From an uncultured Candidatus Saccharibacteria bacterium (lineage in GTDB: Bacteria > Patescibacteriota > Saccharimonadia > CAILAD01 > JADZBC01), in contig CAYPSN010000003.1 in NCBI GenBank assembly GCA_964413715.1, positions 1 through 64,000 on the forward strand: 64,000 nucleotides of DNA, given 5' to 3'. A program made the translations under genes and the position numbers. Shown here piece after piece: positions 999-54,800 of the stretch (its first letter is position 1; each line of letters starts with the position of its first letter). The notes below the pieces were generated by a model that had not been told where the DNA came from, searched no databases, and worked only from the letters and a program-made list of their open reading frames with translations.

Positions 999-3632
999 AT
1001 GTCAATGCAGGGAGAACCCGGAATGGGTGGATCCAGGATAAATCGGGAGCTCGTGCTTCCGCCGGGCATGTACGCCTACGTCCTGGACTCGACCAAGGGC
1101 AAGGTCAGCGTCTACGTCGGACCGACCAAGAACAGCCTGAGCGAGACCGATCAGCCTGTGCGCTGGGACGATCGCGAGCAGCGCTACCTCAACGTCACCG
1201 ACACCGACGCCGCCCGCCAGGTGTGGGCCAAGGCCGAAGAGGGCGAGTACATCGTACTCACCAACCCGGCACCCAGCACAGCATCGTCCGACCACCCACC
1301 CAAGGGTCAGTCGACCGAGGCGGTGGAGCTGGAGGTCGGGCGCCGGGTGATGATCCCGGGTCCGTGCACGTTCCCGCTGTGGCCCGGGCAGACCGCCCAG
1401 ACCATTCCGGGACACCACCTGAGGCACAACCAGTACGTCATCGTGCGGGTCTACGACCCGGAGCTGGCCCAGGAGAACTGGACCAGTGCGGTCATCGCGC
1501 CGCAGGTGACAGTGCCTGCCACCACCCCGACCGAGCCCATCGGTTCATCCGATCAGGGCGAGGCTCAGGGCGACGAGACGACCACCGAAGGTGATGCCGG
1601 CGATCAGCCGGTCACACCGACAGTCGAGGTGCTTCAGCCGCCGACCCCCGTGGGGCTTCCCGGCGAGGCATCTGCCCTCACCATGGGGCAGCTCATGGTC
1701 GTGCCTGGCACGCAGGTGTCCTTCTACATGCCGTCGACGGGTCTGGAAGTGGTTCCCGAAGGCAACAGCTACGTCCGCGATGCGGTCACGCTGGAGACCC
1801 TCGAGTACTGCATCCTGCTCGACGAGAACGGTCAGAAGCGCTACGTGCGCGGACCGGCCGTGGTGTTCCCGAGCCCGACGGAGACGTTCAAGACGAACGA
1901 CAGCCGTCAGCGGGTGTTCCGGGCCATCGAGCTCAACGAACAGTCGGGCCTGTACGTGAAGGTCATCGCCGAGTACACGGAGGATGGGGAGACTCACCCC
2001 GTCGGCGAGGAGCTGTTCATCATGGGCAGCGAGCAGGCCATCTACTACCCGCGGGCCGAGCACAGCATCATCACCTACGACGGGAGGCAGAAGCATCATG
2101 CCATCGCCATCCCCGCGGGTGAAGGTAGGTACGTCCTCAATCGGACCACCGGCCAGGTCAACCTGGTCAAGGGTCCGAAGATGTTCCTGCCCGACCCTCG
2201 CACGGAGGTGGTGGTCCGAAGGATCCTCGATCCGCACGACGTCCAGCTGATGTTCCCCGGCAACGATGAAGCACTGGAGGTCAATCGGCGCTACCAGCGC
2301 GAGAGCAGCACGCTGGAGGGTGGCGAGCACCTACTGAGCCGTGAGGCAGTGCGGGGTTCGTCGTCCGACGTGTTGGGTTCGTTCGCTGCTGGCGACGAGG
2401 AGTTCGGGGGCGACACCATGTCGCGTGGTACCACCCACACCCCACCGCGCACCATCACCCTCGACACCAAGTACGAGGGTGCGGTCGCGGTGCAGGTCTG
2501 GCCGGGCTACGCGATCCTCGTCACCAACAAGACGGGGGATCGTCGAGTCGAGGTAGGGCCGAAGGTGGTCCTGATGGAGTACGACGAGACGATGATGGCG
2601 CTCGAGCTGTCCACGGGGCGGCCCAAGAGCGACCGGAACCTCCTGCGTACCGGTTACCTGAGGGTCGTCAACAACGTCGTCAGCGATCGGGTCACCGTCG
2701 AGACCAAGGACCTCGTCACTATCCAGGTGGAGCTGTCCTACCGGGTCAACTTCGAGGGCGACTCGGCTCGCGAGCAGCAGCGCTGGTTCGACGTCGAGAA
2801 CTACGTGCAGGTGCTGACGGATCACTGCCGTTCCCGGCTGCGCAACGTGGCCAAGCGGTACCAGATCCGTGAGTTCTACACGGAGATCATCGACATCATC
2901 CGCGACAGCCTCCTGGGTGTCGTGCCGGAGAGCGGCGGTTCCCGCGAGGGACTGAAGTTCGCCGAGAACGGCATGCGGGTGTACGACGTCGAGATCTTGG
3001 ATGTGACGATCCAGGACCCCGAGGTGGAAGAGCTTCTCACCGATGCTCAGAGCTCGGCTCTGAGCGGAGCCATCCGCCTGTCGATGGCAGAGGAGGAGGC
3101 CGAGCGGACGAAGGCCACCGAGCAGCTCAATCGCCAGACCCTGACCGAGCAGCAGCTCACGACGGATCTGCGGGCCGAGCTGGCGTTGACGGCGACTCGT
3201 CAGCTGCTCGAGCAGCAACTCGCGGACATCGCGTCCGAACTCGACCAGCGCAAGGAGCGCGCCAAGGTGGAGGAGCATGACCTCAGGCAGGCTCGCAAGC
3301 GTTCGGATCAGGAGACCGAACTCCTCCGGGCTCGCAACGAGGCGGAGCTCGAGCGACTGCGTGTCGAGACCGAGCTCATGTTGTCCCGTCTCGACAAGGT
3401 CCAGCCGGGCCTGATCGAGGCGCTGACGTCGTTCGGTGACCGCCAGCTCGCTCAGCAGATCGTCACGGCCATCGGCCCGGCGGCTCTCGCCGCCGGTCTG
3501 ACGACCGCCGACATGCTGAGCAGCGTGTTCGAAGGCACCCCGCTTGCGGGTGTCATCAGCGCGTTCGCTGAGCGGCCGCTGGCCAACGGCAACGGGTCTC
3601 GTCCGGCACTCACGGGCGCCGGACCGGACTGA
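999..3632 (+). CDS. major vault protein (MVP)-like protein, 877 aa, high GC
   Basis: N-terminus LVLPPGMYAYVLD...V.VGP matches the MVP repeat-1 signature (IRIPPYHYIHVLD...VEVGP); multiple MVP repeats; SPFH/band-7-like shoulder (YDVEILDVTIQDPEVEELL); long Ala/Glu/Arg coiled coil (cap helix); C-terminal AIGP motif as in MVP cap ring; size matches MVP (about 890 aa). Confidence 0.75.
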   Translation: MSMQGEPGMGGSRINRELVLPPGMYAYVLDSTKGKVSVYVGPTKNSLSETDQPVRWDDREQRYLNVTDTDAARQVWAKAEEGEYIVLTNPAPSTASSDHPPKGQSTEAVELEVGRRVMIPGPCTFPLWPGQTAQTIPGHHLRHNQYVIVRVYDPELAQENWTSAVIAPQVTVPATTPTEPIGSSDQGEAQGDETTTEGDAGDQPVTPTVEVLQPPTPVGLPGEASALTMGQLMVVPGTQVSFYMPSTGLEVVPEGNSYVRDAVTLETLEYCILLDENGQKRYVRGPAVVFPSPTETFKTNDSRQRVFRAIELNEQSGLYVKVIAEYTEDGETHPVGEELFIMGSEQAIYYPRAEHSIITYDGRQKHHAIAIPAGEGRYVLNRTTGQVNLVKGPKMFLPDPRTEVVVRRILDPHDVQLMFPGNDEALEVNRRYQRESSTLEGGEHLLSREAVRGSSSDVLGSFAAGDEEFGGDTMSRGTTHTPPRTITLDTKYEGAVAVQVWPGYAILVTNKTGDRRVEVGPKVVLMEYDETMMALELSTGRPKSDRNLLRTGYLRVVNNVVSDRVTVETKDLVTIQVELSYRVNFEGDSAREQQRWFDVENYVQVLTDHCRSRLRNVAKRYQIREFYTEIIDIIRDSLLGVVPESGGSREGLKFAENGMRVYDVEILDVTIQDPEVEELLTDAQSSALSGAIRLSMAEEEAERTKATEQLNRQTLTEQQLTTDLRAELALTATRQLLEQQLADIASELDQRKERAKVEEHDLRQARKRSDQETELLRARNEAELERLRVETELMLSRLDKVQPGLIEALTSFGDRQLAQQIVTAIGPAALAAGLTTADMLSSVFEGTPLAGVISAFAERPLANGNGSRPALTGAGPD

Positions 3633-3668
3633 GCAGCTACCGCTGCAACAAGGGTGACGACCTACGTC

Positions 3669-3698
3669 ATGGGGCCCAGGAGAAATCCTGGGCCCCAT
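3669..3698 (+). terminator. perfect 12-bp hairpin (atggggcccagg/cctgggccccat, loop agaaat) after the MVP-like gene, no U-tract
   Basis: inverted repeat read directly from the sequence. Confidence 0.5.
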
Positions 3699-3788
3699 TA
3701 CATTTTCCGAACAATTGCCTGAACTTGGAGATACTCCTTGGTTTATCAACTTATGCTGTATAATGTATTTGATAAGTATGGAGTAGAT

Positions 3789-4358
3789 ATGAGTATTGGA
3801 TTGATAATTTTACTAGTTGTGGTCGTGCTGGCTATTTGGCTATGGGCTACGTATAACGGTTTAGTTAAAGCCAAATTGCGCACCGATGAAGCTTTTAGCG
3901 ACATTACTGTGCAGATGAAACGCCGGTTTGACCTAATTCCAAATCTAATCGAAACGGTTAAGGGTTACGCCAAGCAAGAAAAAACCGTACTCGAGGAAGT
4001 AACTAAGGCGCGCACTGCTGCCATGAATGCTCCAGAGGGCGATGCGGCAGCAATGGCCAAGGCCGACAATGCCTTGAGCGGCACGCTGAAGAGCCTCTTT
4101 GCAGTAAGTGAAAATTACCCTGATCTAAAGAGTAACCAGAACTTCCAGCAGCTTCAGGAAGAATTGGTAGATACCGAAGATAAAATCCAAGCATCGCGCA
4201 GGTTTTATAACGGCAATGTGCGCGATCTAAACACAAAACTCCAGGTGTTCCCGACCAACATGATTGGTGGTGCGCTCGGCTTTAAGTCACGTGAGTTCTT
4301 TGATGTTGATGCTGGTGAAAAGGATAAAGTAGACAAGCCAGTCGACGTTAAGTTCTGA
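3789..4358 (+). CDS. lemA: LemA family protein
   Basis: N-terminal TM helix, then a LemA-like coiled region; GGAG RBS before ATG at 3789; the longer ORF starting at 3738 lacks an RBS. Confidence 0.75.
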   Translation: MSIGLIILLVVVVLAIWLWATYNGLVKAKLRTDEAFSDITVQMKRRFDLIPNLIETVKGYAKQEKTVLEEVTKARTAAMNAPEGDAAAMAKADNALSGTLKSLFAVSENYPDLKSNQNFQQLQEELVDTEDKIQASRRFYNGNVRDLNTKLQVFPTNMIGGALGFKSREFFDVDAGEKDKVDKPVDVKF

Positions 4359-4380
4359 CGTTTTGAGTCCATCGGTATGG

Positions 4381-4410
4381 AACAGGCACCTCGCGGTGCC
4401 TGTTTTGTTA
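4381..4410 (+). terminator. rho-independent terminator (aacaggcacc tcgc ggtgcctgtt + T-run)
   Basis: hairpin followed by a U-tract. Confidence 0.6.
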
Positions 4411-54013: not shown

Positions 54014-54334
54014 ATGCCAGAACAAGCCAACAAACAACGCATACGAATCAGACTAAAAGCCTACGACAGCAAGATTATCGATCAATCTGCTAAGCAGATT
54101 CTCGATACTGCTGTACGTACCGGTGCTCAAGTAGTGGGCCCAGTGCCGCTTCCTACGGACAAAAACAAGTTTACGGTGCTATCGAGCCCCCACGTTTTTA
54201 AAGACGCTCGAGAGCAGTTTGAAATGCGCACACACAAGCGTTTGATTGATATCACAGAGCCAACTCCTAAGACGATAGATTCTTTGATGAATCTTAATCT
54301 TCCAGCTGGTGTTGATATCGAAATCAAAATGTAA
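54014..54334 (+). CDS. rpsJ: 30S ribosomal protein S10
   Basis: [12 protein letters not shown]-terminus. Confidence 0.95.
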
Positions 54335-54367
54335 TTTGCCTTGGCATCTAATAGGTAAGTCCTAACT

Positions 54368-54397
54368 AAAACACCCCCTGAATAAAGGGGGTGTTTT
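54368..54397. terminator. bidirectional terminator (aaaacaccccct gaataa agggggtgtttt)
   Basis: hairpin with A-tract and U-tract. Confidence 0.65.
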
Positions 54398-54419
54398 AGT
54401 TATGCAAAAAGGCGAGTGA

Positions 54420-54492
54420 GGCGGACCAAAGTCATTAAATGGTTAATTACTTTGGTCCGCCCGCCTGACCCCCCGGTGAAGGGGTCAGGCGG
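54420..54492 (-). terminator. two tandem perfect hairpins (13-bp and 12-bp stems) at the 3' end of the high-GC 105-aa gene; the second overlaps its stop codon
   Basis: ggcggaccaaagt...actttggtccgcc and ccgcctgacccc ccggtgaa ggggtcaggcgg. Confidence 0.5.
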
Positions 54493-54800
54493 TATGGGCG
54501 TAAGGCTTCCCTGCAGGGTAGGGAGGCTCGAACACAGGGCGTTGATCGGAGATCTCCTGCATGCGTGCTCGTACCTTGAGCCGAAGCTCTTCGAGGCTCT
54601 CGCGATCCTGCGACACCCAGGTGAGAAGGAAAGACCTTCTCTCTCCTTCGAGCCGTTCTGAGACATGCACCGTAGGGCTGATCCCTTCAAGTGCTCGCTC
54701 GACCCACTCTGCGTTGTAAGAGGGCCGGTTTGTGAGCGAGAGAACAAGCCCCGTGCTCGTGCGATGGAGACTGAACCCCAGCGATTGAAACTCAACCATG
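54485..54800 (-). CDS. hypothetical small protein (105 aa), high GC, unknown family
   Basis: AGGAGG RBS then ATG (MVEFQSLGFSLHRTST...); the ORF extension to 54904 runs into low-GC flank. Confidence 0.6.

What the first reader, a model, noticed from the sequence alone, without database searches (positions are those of the whole stretch)
999..54800. Eight high-GC single-gene expression units scattered through conserved housekeeping operons
Eight CDS have about 62-70% GC in an approximately 48% GC genome: the MVP-like gene, the 104-aa gene, the serpin, the 166-aa gene, the 117-aa gene, tdk, the 62-aa gene and the 105-aa gene. Each carries a strong SD (GGAGG or AGGAGG) and a long perfect 3' hairpin of 12-14 bp, typically without a U-tract, as is typical of Actinobacteria-style terminators. 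Most have a TTGAC[AT]-17-TAxxxT motif in the low-GC spacer upstream. They interrupt normally contiguous units: rpsG|fusA, rpsJ|rplC, tRNA-Leu|tig and ligA|gatC. Insertions into the str and S10 operons are almost never seen in natural genomes. This many independent pristine acquisitions argues for one of two things: recent massive HGT from a high-GC donor such as an actinobacterial host of an epibiont, or a deliberately engineered or chimeric sequence. A BamHI site (1029-1034) and a SacI site (1047-1052) fall within codons 10-18 of the MVP-like ORF. Each of the two 15-nt direct repeats in the 55008-55609 region also contains a GGATCC. These are suggestive, not decisive, cloning-scar-like details.
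Basis: seen in the sequence. Interest (0 to 1): 0.8.

Follow-up and report, generated by a model that had tools for sequence, protein, structure and literature searches.

The report
GC-rich single-gene islets in Saccharibacteria
A natural, uncultured Saccharibacteria genome carries GC-rich accessory genes, each with its own promoter and hairpin, wedged between housekeeping operons; they are natural insertions of different ages that also occur in related wild genomes, not an engineered construct or one recent burst of gene transfer from a host.

Summary
Eight CDS have GC 56-66% and GC3 0.64-0.89, against native GC3 of 0.35-0.53 in a 49.5% GC window. Each has a strong SD. Six units end in a perfect 12-14 bp GC hairpin without a U-tract.

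Independent assemblies from several samples and MAGs titled "Candidatus Saccharibacteria" carry the same junctions, so engineering and chimerism are excluded. The acquisitions are not all recent:
- tdk, the 166-aa, the 104-aa and the 105-aa genes occupy the same slots in sister species whose core synonymous sites are saturated.
- The serpin-like unit is a clean 1.1-kb species-specific insertion flanked by a duplicated promoter.
- The MVP-like unit recurs at 94.7% nt identity in an unrelated context, and homology stops at the hairpin end.

No homologue found was attributable to Actinobacteria. The MVP-like and mini-serpin families have named Saccharibacteria/CPR members, and the 166-aa family occurs only in this clade's slot.

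Best reading: multi-epoch horizontal acquisitions from high-GC donors, possibly high-GC members of the same phylum, partly ameliorated.

Unexplained: CDS histories are decoupled from flank histories exactly at the CDS ends. This leaves open cassette exchange or active maintenance of high GC.

The parts
901..3698 (+). MVP-like unit: promoter-like TTGATT-17-TATAAT (about 901-929), 5'UTR, CDS 999-3632 (877 aa; MVP_shoulder, Band_7, Vault_3), perfect 13-bp hairpin 3669-3698
   Evidence: Pfam hits. GC3 0.85. Hairpin. Window 918-3696 matches L020 1650-4429 at 94.7% nt with unrelated flanks, and homology ends at the hairpin end. dN/dS 0.11.
8092..8553 (-). 104-aa unit: imperfect two-way terminator 8092-8148 shared with ligA, CDS 8169-8483, SD GGAGG, promoter TTGACA-17-TAAAGT within 8517-8553
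   Evidence: Sequence. GC3 0.74. Same slot in L104, 81% aa, GC3 0.72. dN/dS 0.18. No family hit.
8550..9703 (-). Serpin-like unit: AT-rich spacer, 14-bp hairpin 8695-8726, CDS 8744-9610 (288 aa from GTG), SD AGGAGG, 5'UTR, second copy of the promoter at 9672-9703
   Evidence: Absent from sister genome L104: window 8550-9671 is a clean insertion. It is flanked by a 32-37 bp direct repeat, 8517-8548 and 9672-9703, that holds the leftward promoter. AlphaFold pLDDT 92.8, and Foldseek matches serpins at E 1e-11 to 1e-9. GC3 0.89.
14499..15130 (-). 166-aa unit: 13-bp hairpin 14499-14532, CDS 14549-15046 (165 codons), SD GAGAGGAAG, AT-rich upstream region
   Evidence: GC3 0.85. Only 4 protein clusters are known, all in the DUF5665|dnaE slot in L103, L104, L105 and L106. 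dN/dS is 0.36 within the species, against 0.02-0.09 for neighbours.
36573..37055 (+). 117-aa unit: promoter TTGACA-17-TAATAT, SD GGGGAGG, CDS 36652-37005, 12-bp hairpin 37029-37055; lies between tRNA-Leu(tag) and tig
48901..49790 (-). tdk unit with a downstream 62-aa ORF between rpsG and fusA: 12-bp hairpin 48901-48936, 62-aa ORF 48955-49143 (doubtful gene), tdk 49206-49754, SD AGGAGA
   Evidence: Pfam TK 79 bits. Same position in sister species L006-L008 and L010 (tdk 79% aa). GC3 0.67 here and 0.64 there. The 62-aa ORF has dN/dS 0.97 and GC2 0.60, and a non-homologous 72-aa ORF replaces it in L006.
54408..54950 (-). 105-aa unit in the rpsJ|rplC gap: hairpins 54408-54460 and 54461-54492, CDS 54485-54799, SD AGGAGG, promoter TTGACA-17-TATGAT about 150 nt upstream
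   Evidence: Against same-species L009 (about 96% nt identity), homology stops at 54493 and resumes at 54785. The interior encodes a protein only 34% identical. Other relatives carry other small ORFs in this slot.
55150..55605 (+). GC-rich (67%) non-coding structured element ending in an intrinsic terminator, upstream of an 87-aa membrane-protein gene.
   Evidence: No codon periodicity. RNA fold z = -13.8 on the + strand and -7.9 on the - strand. 21 of 141 pairs show compensatory changes in 4 sequences. No Rfam match.

Best explanation
The window is a natural chromosome segment of an uncultured Candidatus Saccharibacteria (CPR) bacterium. The eight GC-rich CDS are accessory genes of horizontal origin, and most are demonstrably functional. 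They entered at different times, not in one burst.

How each unit is built:
- Each sits in an intergenic slot between core operons.
- Each is an autonomous transcription unit: an AT-rich sigma-70-type promoter, a strong SD, and a GC-rich CDS. Six of the units end in a GC-rich stem-loop.
- The stem-loop's role as a U-tract-independent terminator or 3'-end stabiliser is inferred, not shown.

Why a horizontal origin is inferred:
- The base composition, generic high-GC codon usage and Arg-over-Lys shift point to long residence in a genome of about 62-66% GC.
- After entry the genes drift towards the 49% host composition (amelioration).
- Units shared with sister species tend to have lower GC3: tdk 0.67, 105-aa 0.64 and 104-aa 0.74.
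- The unit shown to be species-specific (serpin-like, 0.89) and the relocating MVP-like unit (0.85) are near-pristine. The distribution of the 117-aa unit (0.85) among relatives is unknown.

Mechanism of entry (partly inferred):
- Promoters can be supplied locally. The serpin-like unit is flanked by a duplication of the resident promoter.
- This fits a single-crossover or illegitimate insertion at that promoter, but the insertion step itself is inferred.

Donors (conjecture): the families are CPR/Saccharibacteria-type, not actinobacterial. The likeliest donors are high-GC relatives within the phylum or other unsampled high-GC bacteria, not the actinobacterial host.

Likely roles (inferred):
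- Nucleoside salvage (tdk).
- Protease inhibition (mini-serpin).
- A vault/SPFH-like shell or scaffold (MVP-like).
- Fast-evolving small cytoplasmic proteins of unknown role, possibly in conflict or host interaction.
For: Natural origin:
- The same junctions occur in independent assemblies and MAGs.
- Genome record titles name Candidatus Saccharibacteria.

Foreign composition:
- GC3 is 0.64-0.89 against 0.35-0.53 for native genes.
- All codon families are shifted to both G- and C-ending codons, and R/(R+K) reaches 0.85.

Different ages:
- tdk is at rpsG|fusA in species whose ribosomal proteins are 76-100% identical and whose dS is 1-2.5.
- The 166-aa and 104-aa genes occupy the same slots in L104, L105 and L106.
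- The serpin-like unit is absent from L104.
- The MVP-like gene is in different contexts in L012/L015-L020.

Amelioration:
- Polarised third-position changes (GC>AT: AT>GC) are 9:4 for the 166-aa gene and 7:3 for tdk, against about 1:1 in core genes.
- The window's MVP-like copy is more AT-shifted than L020's: 41 sites against 22.

Functional genes: dN/dS is 0.11-0.36 for the MVP-like gene, tdk and the 166-, 104- and 105-aa genes.

Promoter duplication.

Donor pool:
- Relatives of the MVP-like gene and the mini-serpin are in CPR genomes.
- L013, a uniformly 62% GC contig, carries an MVP-like gene (58% identical) followed by GC hairpins. Its P-type ATPase is 57% identical to one in a Saccharibacteria locus.
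Against: - No donor with more than 70% identity to any island protein was found outside this clade in 5.8 billion proteins. The donor is therefore inferred, not shown.
- The 166-aa gene keeps GC3 0.75-0.86 in lineages that share the slot, although core synonymous sites are saturated.
- The 166-aa and 104-aa CDS are less diverged at four-fold sites (identity 0.61-0.65) than the flanking core genes (0.32-0.37). The higher identity is confined to the CDS. Simple vertical inheritance plus neutral amelioration does not predict this.
- High GC begins at the start codon in every unit. Random illegitimate insertions would not give that without strong filtering.
- The MVP-like gene is GC-elevated relative to its flanks in nearly all CPR genomes sampled.
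- The counts in the polarised substitution test are small and depend on the outgroup.
Confidence: 0.55

Rival explanations
1. Socket-and-cassette exchange, with or without active maintenance of GC. The slots would be fixed 'sockets', each a resident promoter/SD on one side and a hairpin on the other. CDS modules would be exchanged between Saccharibacteria lineages by recombination that resolves at those boundaries. The high GC3 would be kept up by GC-biased gene conversion at these recombination hot spots, or by selection on the DNA or mRNA.
For: - Window against L009 (about 96% nt identity): the hairpin, promoter, SD and first five codons are conserved, but the CDS interior is only 34% aa identical.
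- MVP-like unit against L020: homology ends exactly at the hairpin end.
- The 166-aa and 104-aa CDS are more similar between the window and L104 than the core genes around them, and the adjacent intergenic DNA is 28-58% identical.
- The window's 166-aa protein is closer to L104's (85%) than to same-species L103's (82%).
- The ligA|gatC slot of L105 holds a different small gene, possibly of the 117-aa family (hhalign probability 66%).
- The window and L103 are a recombination mosaic.
- The MVP-like gene is GC-elevated in many CPR genomes.
Against: - No recombinase, integrase or conserved core site was found.
- The hairpins differ in sequence between units.
- Only the serpin-like unit has flanking direct repeats.
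- Known GC-biased conversion effects in bacteria are a few percent of GC3, not 35 points (own knowledge).
- The GC>AT excess in polarised changes points to decay rather than equilibrium.
- Selection that holds GC3 at 0.85 would lower the synonymous rate only to about 0.6-0.7 of neutral, whereas about 0.35 is observed (own calculation).
Confidence: 0.22
2. Recent massive transfer from an actinobacterial host of the epibiont.
For: - Codon usage resembles that of high-GC Actinobacteria.
- The hairpins lack U-tracts.
- Saccharibacteria are known epibionts of Actinobacteria and take up foreign DNA (own knowledge).
- One contig with a 96%-identical MVP-like protein was binned into an Iamiaceae MAG.
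Against: - That contig (L020) is itself a mosaic of 50% GC and 65% GC genes. Its neighbouring high-GC membrane protein is 71% identical to one beside the MVP-like gene in a Saccharibacteria MAG, so it is probably mis-binned.
- No other actinobacterial record is among the 80 best genome hits.
- Named or contextualised relatives of the mini-serpin and the 166-aa protein lie in Saccharibacteria/CPR-type genomes; the 117-aa family hits carry no taxon.
- At least five of the eight genes predate species splits.
Confidence: 0.08
3. Engineered or chimeric sequence, or an assembly/binning artefact that mixes a high-GC contaminant into a Saccharibacteria contig.
For: - Sharp composition boundaries.
- BamHI and SacI sites near the 5' end of the MVP-like ORF, and GGATCC in two repeats.
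Against: - The junctions are reproduced by different assemblers, samples and projects.
- Sister species carry diverged versions at the same positions.
- Restriction sites are at or below chance frequency. They are conserved in a natural variant and encode conserved residues.
- The GGATCC repeats are a conserved motif of a structured element found in four lineages.
Confidence: 0.02

Closest known systems
Horizontally acquired genomic islets with amelioration (Lawrence and Ochman model; own knowledge)
   Same: - Atypical GC3 and codon usage.
- Patchy presence among relatives for some units.
- Lower GC3 in most units shared with sister species, and an excess of GC>AT changes.
   Different: - Each islet is a single gene with a complete expression unit of its own.
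- Insertions lie inside the str/S10 gene order and other core clusters.
- No mobility genes, tRNA-end integration or target duplications, apart from one promoter duplication.
- No donor has been identified.
- CDS-bounded breakpoints.
Integron gene cassettes (ORF plus 3' attC hairpin)
   Same: - One ORF followed by a structured palindrome whose sequence varies between cassettes.
- The ORF can be exchanged at a fixed position, and a resident promoter can drive it.
   Different: - No integrase, attI site or cassette array.
- Stems are short, perfect and GC-rich (12-14 bp, loops of 3-12 nt). No bulged, longer attC-type palindrome with a core site was seen.
- Most units carry their own promoter.
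- The units are scattered over 54 kb.
Hypervariable flexible-genome slots in streamlined bacteria (for example Prochlorococcus or SAR11 hypervariable regions; own knowledge)
   Same: - Conserved flanking core genes with strain-specific content.
- Small fast-evolving genes of unknown function.
- Evidence of frequent recombination.
   Different: - The slots here hold one gene, not tens of kilobases.
- The content is markedly more GC-rich than the genome, rather than GC-poorer.
U-tract-less ('I-shaped') stem-loop terminators described for Actinobacteria/mycobacteria (own knowledge)
   Same: GC-rich perfect stems directly after the stop codon, without a T-run.
   Different: - They occur here in a CPR genome whose native genes use classical A-tract/T-tract terminators.
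- Termination activity is untested.

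Membership tests
Serpin superfamily (PF00079) | Sequence match to the family model at or above Pfam's gathering score | tested here: not met
   26.2 bits against a cut-off of 27. Only residues 220-288 match model positions 300-367.
Serpin superfamily (PF00079) | Serpin fold (central beta-sheet A, helices, exposed reactive-centre loop) | tested here: met
   AlphaFold model with pLDDT 92.8. Foldseek matches to 124 PDB chains at E<=1e-3; the 50 best listed are serpins (one a complex containing a viral serpin). Best E is 1.4e-11; TM (query) is 0.42-0.58, lowest for polymerised, latent or complexed chains. This includes the small viral serpin CrmA. The only low-confidence block (residues 241-250) lies where a reactive loop would be. 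At 288 aa it is well short of typical serpins (Pfam model 370 positions; PDB matches 288-423 aa).
Serpin superfamily (PF00079) | Suicide-substrate inhibition of a serine or cysteine protease | not testable with these tools
   Needs biochemistry.
Major vault protein | MVP shoulder domain | tested here: met
   PF11978, 95.7 bits (cut-off 25), residues 558-673. An overlapping Band_7/SPFH hit scores 36.4 bits.
Major vault protein | Array of vault repeat domains N-terminal to the shoulder | tested here: inconclusive
   One Vault_3 match (35.4 bits, residues 510-547). The rest of the N-terminal 500 residues has no Pfam match but is conserved across the bacterial family.
Major vault protein | Assembly into a vault-like particle | not testable with these tools
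   No structure prediction or experiment was done for this protein.
Thymidine kinase, TK1 type (PF00265) | Full-length match above the gathering score, P-loop and C-terminal cysteine pairs | tested here: met
   79.2 bits against a cut-off of 20.6, model positions 3-176 of 176. GPMKSGKS, CDVC and CRQC are visible in the translation. Matches solved TKs at E 1.8e-18. Scores fall below NCBIfam equivalog cut-offs, so it is a divergent member.
Integron cassette | attC site with conserved core sites and bulged stem; integrase and attI nearby; cassettes in an array | tested here: not met
   The hairpins are perfect short stems with unrelated sequences. The ORFs examined around the islands are housekeeping genes or small proteins without family hits. 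The whole window was not screened for recombinases. The units are dispersed.
Horizontally acquired genomic island | Composition and codon usage deviating from the host genome | tested here: met
Horizontally acquired genomic island | Presence/absence polymorphism among close relatives | tested here: met
   Met for the serpin-like unit (absent in L104) and the MVP-like unit (other contexts). Not met for tdk or the 166-aa and 104-aa genes, which are conserved in place.
Horizontally acquired genomic island | Identifiable donor lineage | tested here: not met
   No relative above 70% identity outside the clade. A high-GC CPR-like contig, L013, is only a candidate type of donor.
Engineered construct | Absence from natural samples; cloning scars beyond chance; vector sequence | tested here: not met
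   Present in many metagenomes. Site counts are at chance. No plasmid match for the MVP-like gene.

The most novel reading that the evidence does not exclude
Saccharibacteria may keep fixed intergenic 'sockets', each a resident promoter/SD plus a stem-loop, inside their most conserved operon clusters. GC-rich single-gene modules would be swapped between lineages through these sockets by a recombination process that resolves at the CDS ends. The strongly elevated GC of these modules would be actively maintained, by biased gene conversion or by selection on the DNA or mRNA, rather than being a fading signature of a foreign donor. Selection could conceivably be linked to life on high-GC hosts. 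This would be a cassette system without an integron integrase.
Probability: 0.2. Interest if true: 0.8.

Novelty: new variant of a known kind. Interest (0 to 1): 0.5.

Why it matters
CPR/Saccharibacteria have tiny genomes, depend on hosts and are mostly uncultured, so how they gain new functions is poorly known.

This window shows gene gain in units of a single gene. Each gene has complete expression signals and sits in the middle of the ribosomal-protein, gatCAB and replication gene clusters. In relatives the same slots are reused or their contents replaced.

Practical lessons:
- GC-based binning and contamination filters can mis-assign such contigs. One apparently ended up in an Iamiaceae MAG.
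- Sharp composition islands in CPR genomes should not be read as chimeras or constructs without checking sister assemblies.

If the decoupling of CDS and flank histories reflects a real exchange mechanism or active GC maintenance, it would be a new route of accessory-gene turnover in reduced genomes. The miniature serpin, the bacterial MVP-like protein and the small hypervariable proteins are candidates for host-interaction or conflict functions.

Tried and rejected
- **Engineering or cloning scars:** rejected.
- **Assembly chimera:** rejected on independent assemblies and diverged orthologous arrangements.
- **Phage or plasmid origin:**
  - PHROGs matched only TK.
  - The MVP-like protein has no plasmid hit and only 40% matches in huge phages.
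  - The mini-serpin has only 30% matches on three large IMG/VR contigs.
  - TK has no close viral relative.
- **Defence systems:** PADLOC gave nothing meaningful.
- **Translational selection as the cause of high GC3:** rejected. Ribosomal proteins and tuf have GC3 0.35-0.51, and the shift affects G- and C-ending codons of every family.
- **Common paralogy of the small proteins:** only the 105-aa family recurs across genomes. The 104-aa protein is not related to the 117-aa family (hhalign probability 5%), while L105's slot gene may be (66%).
- **Target-site duplications:** none except at the serpin-like unit.
- **Known RNA families for the GC-rich non-coding blocks:** none.
- **Literature:** three searches found no description of this pattern.
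- **Failed or wasted steps:**
  - The ClpP scan returned only distant ClpPs, so the tRNA-Leu|tig slot could not be compared with sister species.
  - Cluster look-ups gave no taxon names.

Full report
**1. Checking the observation**

The window has 49.5% GC. A 120-nt sliding scan picks out sharp blocks above 58%.

Eight CDS carry the signal, mostly at third codon positions:

| CDS | Coordinates, strand | GC | GC3 |
|---|---|---|---|
| MVP-like | 999-3632 + | 65.4% | 0.85 |
| 104-aa | 8169-8483 - | 60.3% | 0.74 |
| serpin-like | 8744-9610 - | 63.1% | 0.89 |
| 166-aa | 14549-15046 - | 62.5% | 0.85 |
| 117-aa | 36652-37005 + | 64.7% | 0.85 |
| 62-aa | 48955-49143 - | 65.6% | 0.70 |
| tdk | 49206-49754 - | 55.6% | 0.67 |
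| 105-aa | 54485-54799 - | 58.4% | 0.64 |

- Sixteen native genes have GC3 0.35-0.53.
- Codon usage of the four most extreme genes is generic high-GC. Examples are ATC 97%, TTC and TAC 100%, AAG 98%, and CTG+CTC 92%. Both G- and C-ending codons are enriched. Arg replaces Lys, with R/(R+K) up to 0.85 against 0.24-0.52 in native proteins. This is not translational selection, because tuf and the ribosomal protein genes have ordinary GC3.
- The window holds 16 perfect hairpins of at least 10 bp, against 0.25 expected. They fall into two classes.
  - Native terminators have arms that include A- and T-tracts.
  - Six GC-rich stems of 12-14 bp without T-runs each lie directly 3' of an island CDS.
- The 104-aa gene shares an imperfect two-way terminator with ligA. 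tdk is followed 62 nt downstream by the 62-aa ORF on the same strand.
- All eight CDS have GGAGG-type SD sequences. Five have TTGAnn-17-TAnnnT in AT-rich DNA upstream.
- Pfam confirms MVP_shoulder/Band_7/Vault_3 and TK, and gives a sub-threshold C-terminal serpin hit. The five small proteins match nothing in Pfam, PHROGs, PADLOC or NCBIfam.

**2. Natural, not engineered or chimeric**

- Exact-protein look-ups recover the same gene orders, junctions included, from different projects and assemblers. These are:
  - ENA ERZ28656156, ERZ28655916, ERZ22302045 and ERZ27309394;
  - Logan SRR6747781/2;
  - JGI 3300013121 and others;
  - several NCBI MAGs.
- Genome records with the closest MVP-like genes are titled "uncultured Candidatus Saccharibacteria bacterium".
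- GGATCC occurs 11 times and GAGCTC 22 times in 64 kb, about the chance number.
- The two sites in the MVP-like ORF are also present in a 94.7%-identical natural variant. They encode conserved residues (G-S and R-E-L).
- The two "GGATCC repeats" at about 55360 and 55515 are copies of the motif CGGGATCCGCCGCCTG. The 3' copy is conserved in all lineages compared; the 5' copy is specific to the window's strain.

**3. The units are not all recent**

*tdk*
- tdk lies between rpsG and fusA in a sister species (loci L006-L008, L010).
- There, tdk is 79% identical, ribosomal proteins are 76-100% identical, and core synonymous sites are saturated (dS 1 to above 2.5).
- tdk GC3 is 0.64-0.67 in both lineages.

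*The 166-aa gene*
- It sits antisense between the DUF5665 gene and dnaE in four lineages (L103, L104, L105, L106).
- Its GC3 is 0.81, 0.75, 0.67 and 0.67 there.

*The 104-aa gene*
- It sits between ligA and gatC in L104 (81% aa, GC3 0.72).

*The 105-aa family*
- It recurs in the rpsJ|rplC gap at 63% and 34% identity, in genomes whose S10 protein is 100% identical.

*The serpin-like unit*
- It is absent from L104.
- Window 8550-9671 is a clean 1.12-kb insertion flanked by a 32-37 bp direct repeat (8517-8548 and 9672-9703).
- That repeat is the resident leftward promoter, so the incoming gene gained its promoter by duplication of the local one.

*The MVP-like unit*
- It is absent upstream of lemA in L104, and it lies in other contexts in five sister MAGs (66-70% aa).
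- Window 918-3696 recurs at 94.7% nt identity in contig L020 with unrelated flanks.
- Homology ends exactly at the last base of the hairpin. On the other side it fades around the -10 box and 5'UTR.

*Overall*
- Units shared with sister species mostly have lower GC3 than the species-specific or relocating ones. The 166-aa gene is the exception.
- Polarised third-position changes run GC>AT: AT>GC at 9:4 (166-aa gene) and 7:3 (tdk). Core genes run 27:30, 15:12, 39:22 and 6:7.
- The numbers are small, but they fit ongoing amelioration.

**4. Where the genes come from**

- *MVP-like family.*
  - It has more than 5,500 detectable members.
  - The 80 best genome hits are in Saccharibacteria, other CPR groups, Myxococcota, Riflebacteria, Vulcanimicrobiota, Planctomycetota, Bacteroidota and others.
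  - Huge phages carry 40%-identical copies.
- *The one actinobacterial label.*
  - A 96%-identical copy lies on a 10.8-kb contig (L020) in an Iamiaceae MAG.
  - That contig is itself a mosaic of 50% GC and 65% GC genes.
  - Its neighbouring high-GC membrane protein is 71% identical to a gene beside the MVP-like gene in a Saccharibacteria MAG.
  - Mis-binning is the simplest reading.
- *Mini-serpin.*
  - It has 19 relatives in 5.8 billion proteins, and the nearest named one (62%) is from Ca. Saccharimonas.
  - There it is also GC-elevated (GC3 0.70 against flanks of 48% GC) and in another context.
  - Distant relatives match their genomes in composition.
- *166-aa family.* It has four clusters, all in this clade's slot.
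- *117-aa family.* An exhaustive HMMER search found 39 representative clusters of 93-149-aa proteins and two long proteins matching only short stretches. None carries a taxon name.
- *TK.* It is a divergent TK1-type enzyme with no actinophage affinity.
- No protein more than 70% identical to an island protein was found outside the clade, so the donor is not identified.
- *A candidate type of donor.*
  - L013 is a uniformly 62% GC contig (a second contig with the same protein is 787 kb).
  - It carries an MVP-like gene (58% identical) followed by GC hairpins.
  - Its P-type ATPase is 57% identical over 887 residues to one in a Saccharibacteria locus.
  - This makes high-GC relatives within the phylum plausible donors, and it would explain compatible expression signals. 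It remains a conjecture.

**5. What simple transfer plus amelioration does not explain**

CDS histories are decoupled from flank histories, with breakpoints at the CDS ends.
- *Window against L104.*
  - Four-fold-site identity is 0.65 (166-aa gene) and 0.61 (104-aa gene), against 0.32-0.37 for the flanking core genes. Saturation would give about 0.25-0.34.
  - Nucleotide identity is 78-91% inside the 166-aa CDS but 28-58% in the adjacent intergenic DNA.
- *Within the species (window against L103).* The 166-aa gene is the most divergent 600 nt of a 16-kb mosaic. Its dN/dS is 0.36, against 0.02-0.09 for neighbours.
- *rpsJ slot, window against L009 (about 96% nt identity).* Homology stops at 54493, the hairpin end, and resumes at 54785, the fifth codon. 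The interior encodes proteins only 34% identical.
- *MVP-like gene.* It is more GC-rich than its flanks in nearly every CPR genome sampled, by 5 to 19 points.

These facts leave room for exchange of CDS-sized modules between lineages, or for a force that constrains synonymous sites and keeps GC3 high. I could not separate the two with the data available.

**6. Function**

- dN/dS of 0.11-0.36 shows that the MVP-like gene, tdk and the 166-, 104- and 105-aa genes encode selected proteins.
- The 62-aa ORF is doubtful as a gene. Its dN/dS is 0.97 and its GC2 is 0.60, and a non-homologous ORF takes its place in the sister species.
- The serpin-like protein folds confidently (pLDDT 92.8). It matches serpins at E 1e-11 to 1e-9 (TM mostly about 0.5), including the small viral serpin CrmA. 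The only low-confidence block lies where the reactive loop would be. It is a miniature serpin-fold protein; inhibition is untested.
- I infer, but have not shown, these roles:
  - nucleoside salvage (tdk);
  - protease control (serpin-like protein);
  - a vault/SPFH-type shell or scaffold (MVP-like protein);
  - conflict or host-interaction roles for the fast-evolving small proteins.

**7. Verdict**

- The engineered/chimeric reading is excluded.
- The reading "recent massive transfer from an actinobacterial host" is not supported on timing or on donor.
- The best-supported account is repeated single-gene horizontal acquisition at different times from high-GC donors. The genes entered intergenic slots of a Saccharibacteria core genome and are gradually ameliorating (confidence 0.55).
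- The main rival is a cassette-like exchange and/or active maintenance of GC at fixed sockets (0.22).
- This is a new variant of a known kind. It is of moderate interest in itself and of higher interest if the exchange or maintenance mechanism proves real.

Noticed in passing
window 55150-55605 (+): A 67% GC non-coding element.
- RNA fold z = -13.8 on the + strand, forming a chain of perfect hairpins with UUCG-type loops.
- It ends in an intrinsic terminator just upstream of an 87-aa membrane-protein gene.
- The 5' domain and the 3' hairpins are conserved with compensatory changes in L004, L007 and L010.
- The central part, 55183-55506, is replaced by unrelated sequence in same-species L009.
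- No Rfam family matches.
- Candidate new structured RNA or long leader.
   Followed up: partly
window 52200-52680 (fusA|tuf spacer): A 700-nt spacer with 53-58% GC and no codon periodicity. RNA fold z = -5.5 on the + strand. Only 42-100 nt can be aligned to sister species, although their spacers have a similar length and GC. No Rfam match.
   Followed up: partly
window 18890-19540 (dnaE|rplS) and 20300-21000 (rplS|rnhB): Two further GC-elevated (55-59%) blocks without codon periodicity or Rfam matches. Both are present in same-species L103. In L104 the corresponding gaps are only 80-118 nt, and in L106 the dnaE|rplS gap is 57 nt.
   Followed up: partly
L020 (CAYQFM010000062.1, labelled uncultured Iamiaceae MAG): A 10.8-kb contig carrying the 96%-identical MVP-like gene. 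It is a mosaic of 50% GC and 65% GC genes, like the window. It shares a neighbouring gene with a Saccharibacteria MAG, so it was probably mis-binned into an actinobacterial MAG because of its composition.
   Followed up: partly
window 4549-20500 vs L103: Two strains of one species are virtually identical over 4549-12348 (4 differences in about 7.8 kb). They then differ by 2-11% per 300 nt, and further near-identical blocks follow. This is a recombination mosaic within the population.
   Followed up: partly
L006 7880-8230: The counterpart of the structured element in MAG GCA_964436255.1 contains long poly-G/poly-C runs and Ns, and a gene caller produced a spurious 181-aa protein from it. This is an assembly artefact in a GC-rich hairpin region.
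   Followed up: no
phage records LR756500-LR756503; IMG/VR loci L187-L189: Huge-phage genomes encode MVP-like proteins (40% identical). Three IMG/VR viral contigs (26-304 kb) encode mini-serpin relatives (30% identical).
   Followed up: no
L004 (GCA_964496815.1) 1-1968: In this sister genome a ClpB-type AAA gene, not rpsG-tdk, precedes fusA. The str gene order is therefore broken in more than one way in this clade. In the window, rpsG has a classical terminator, fusA a TTGATA-17-TATAAT promoter, and rpsJ a classical terminator.
   Followed up: no
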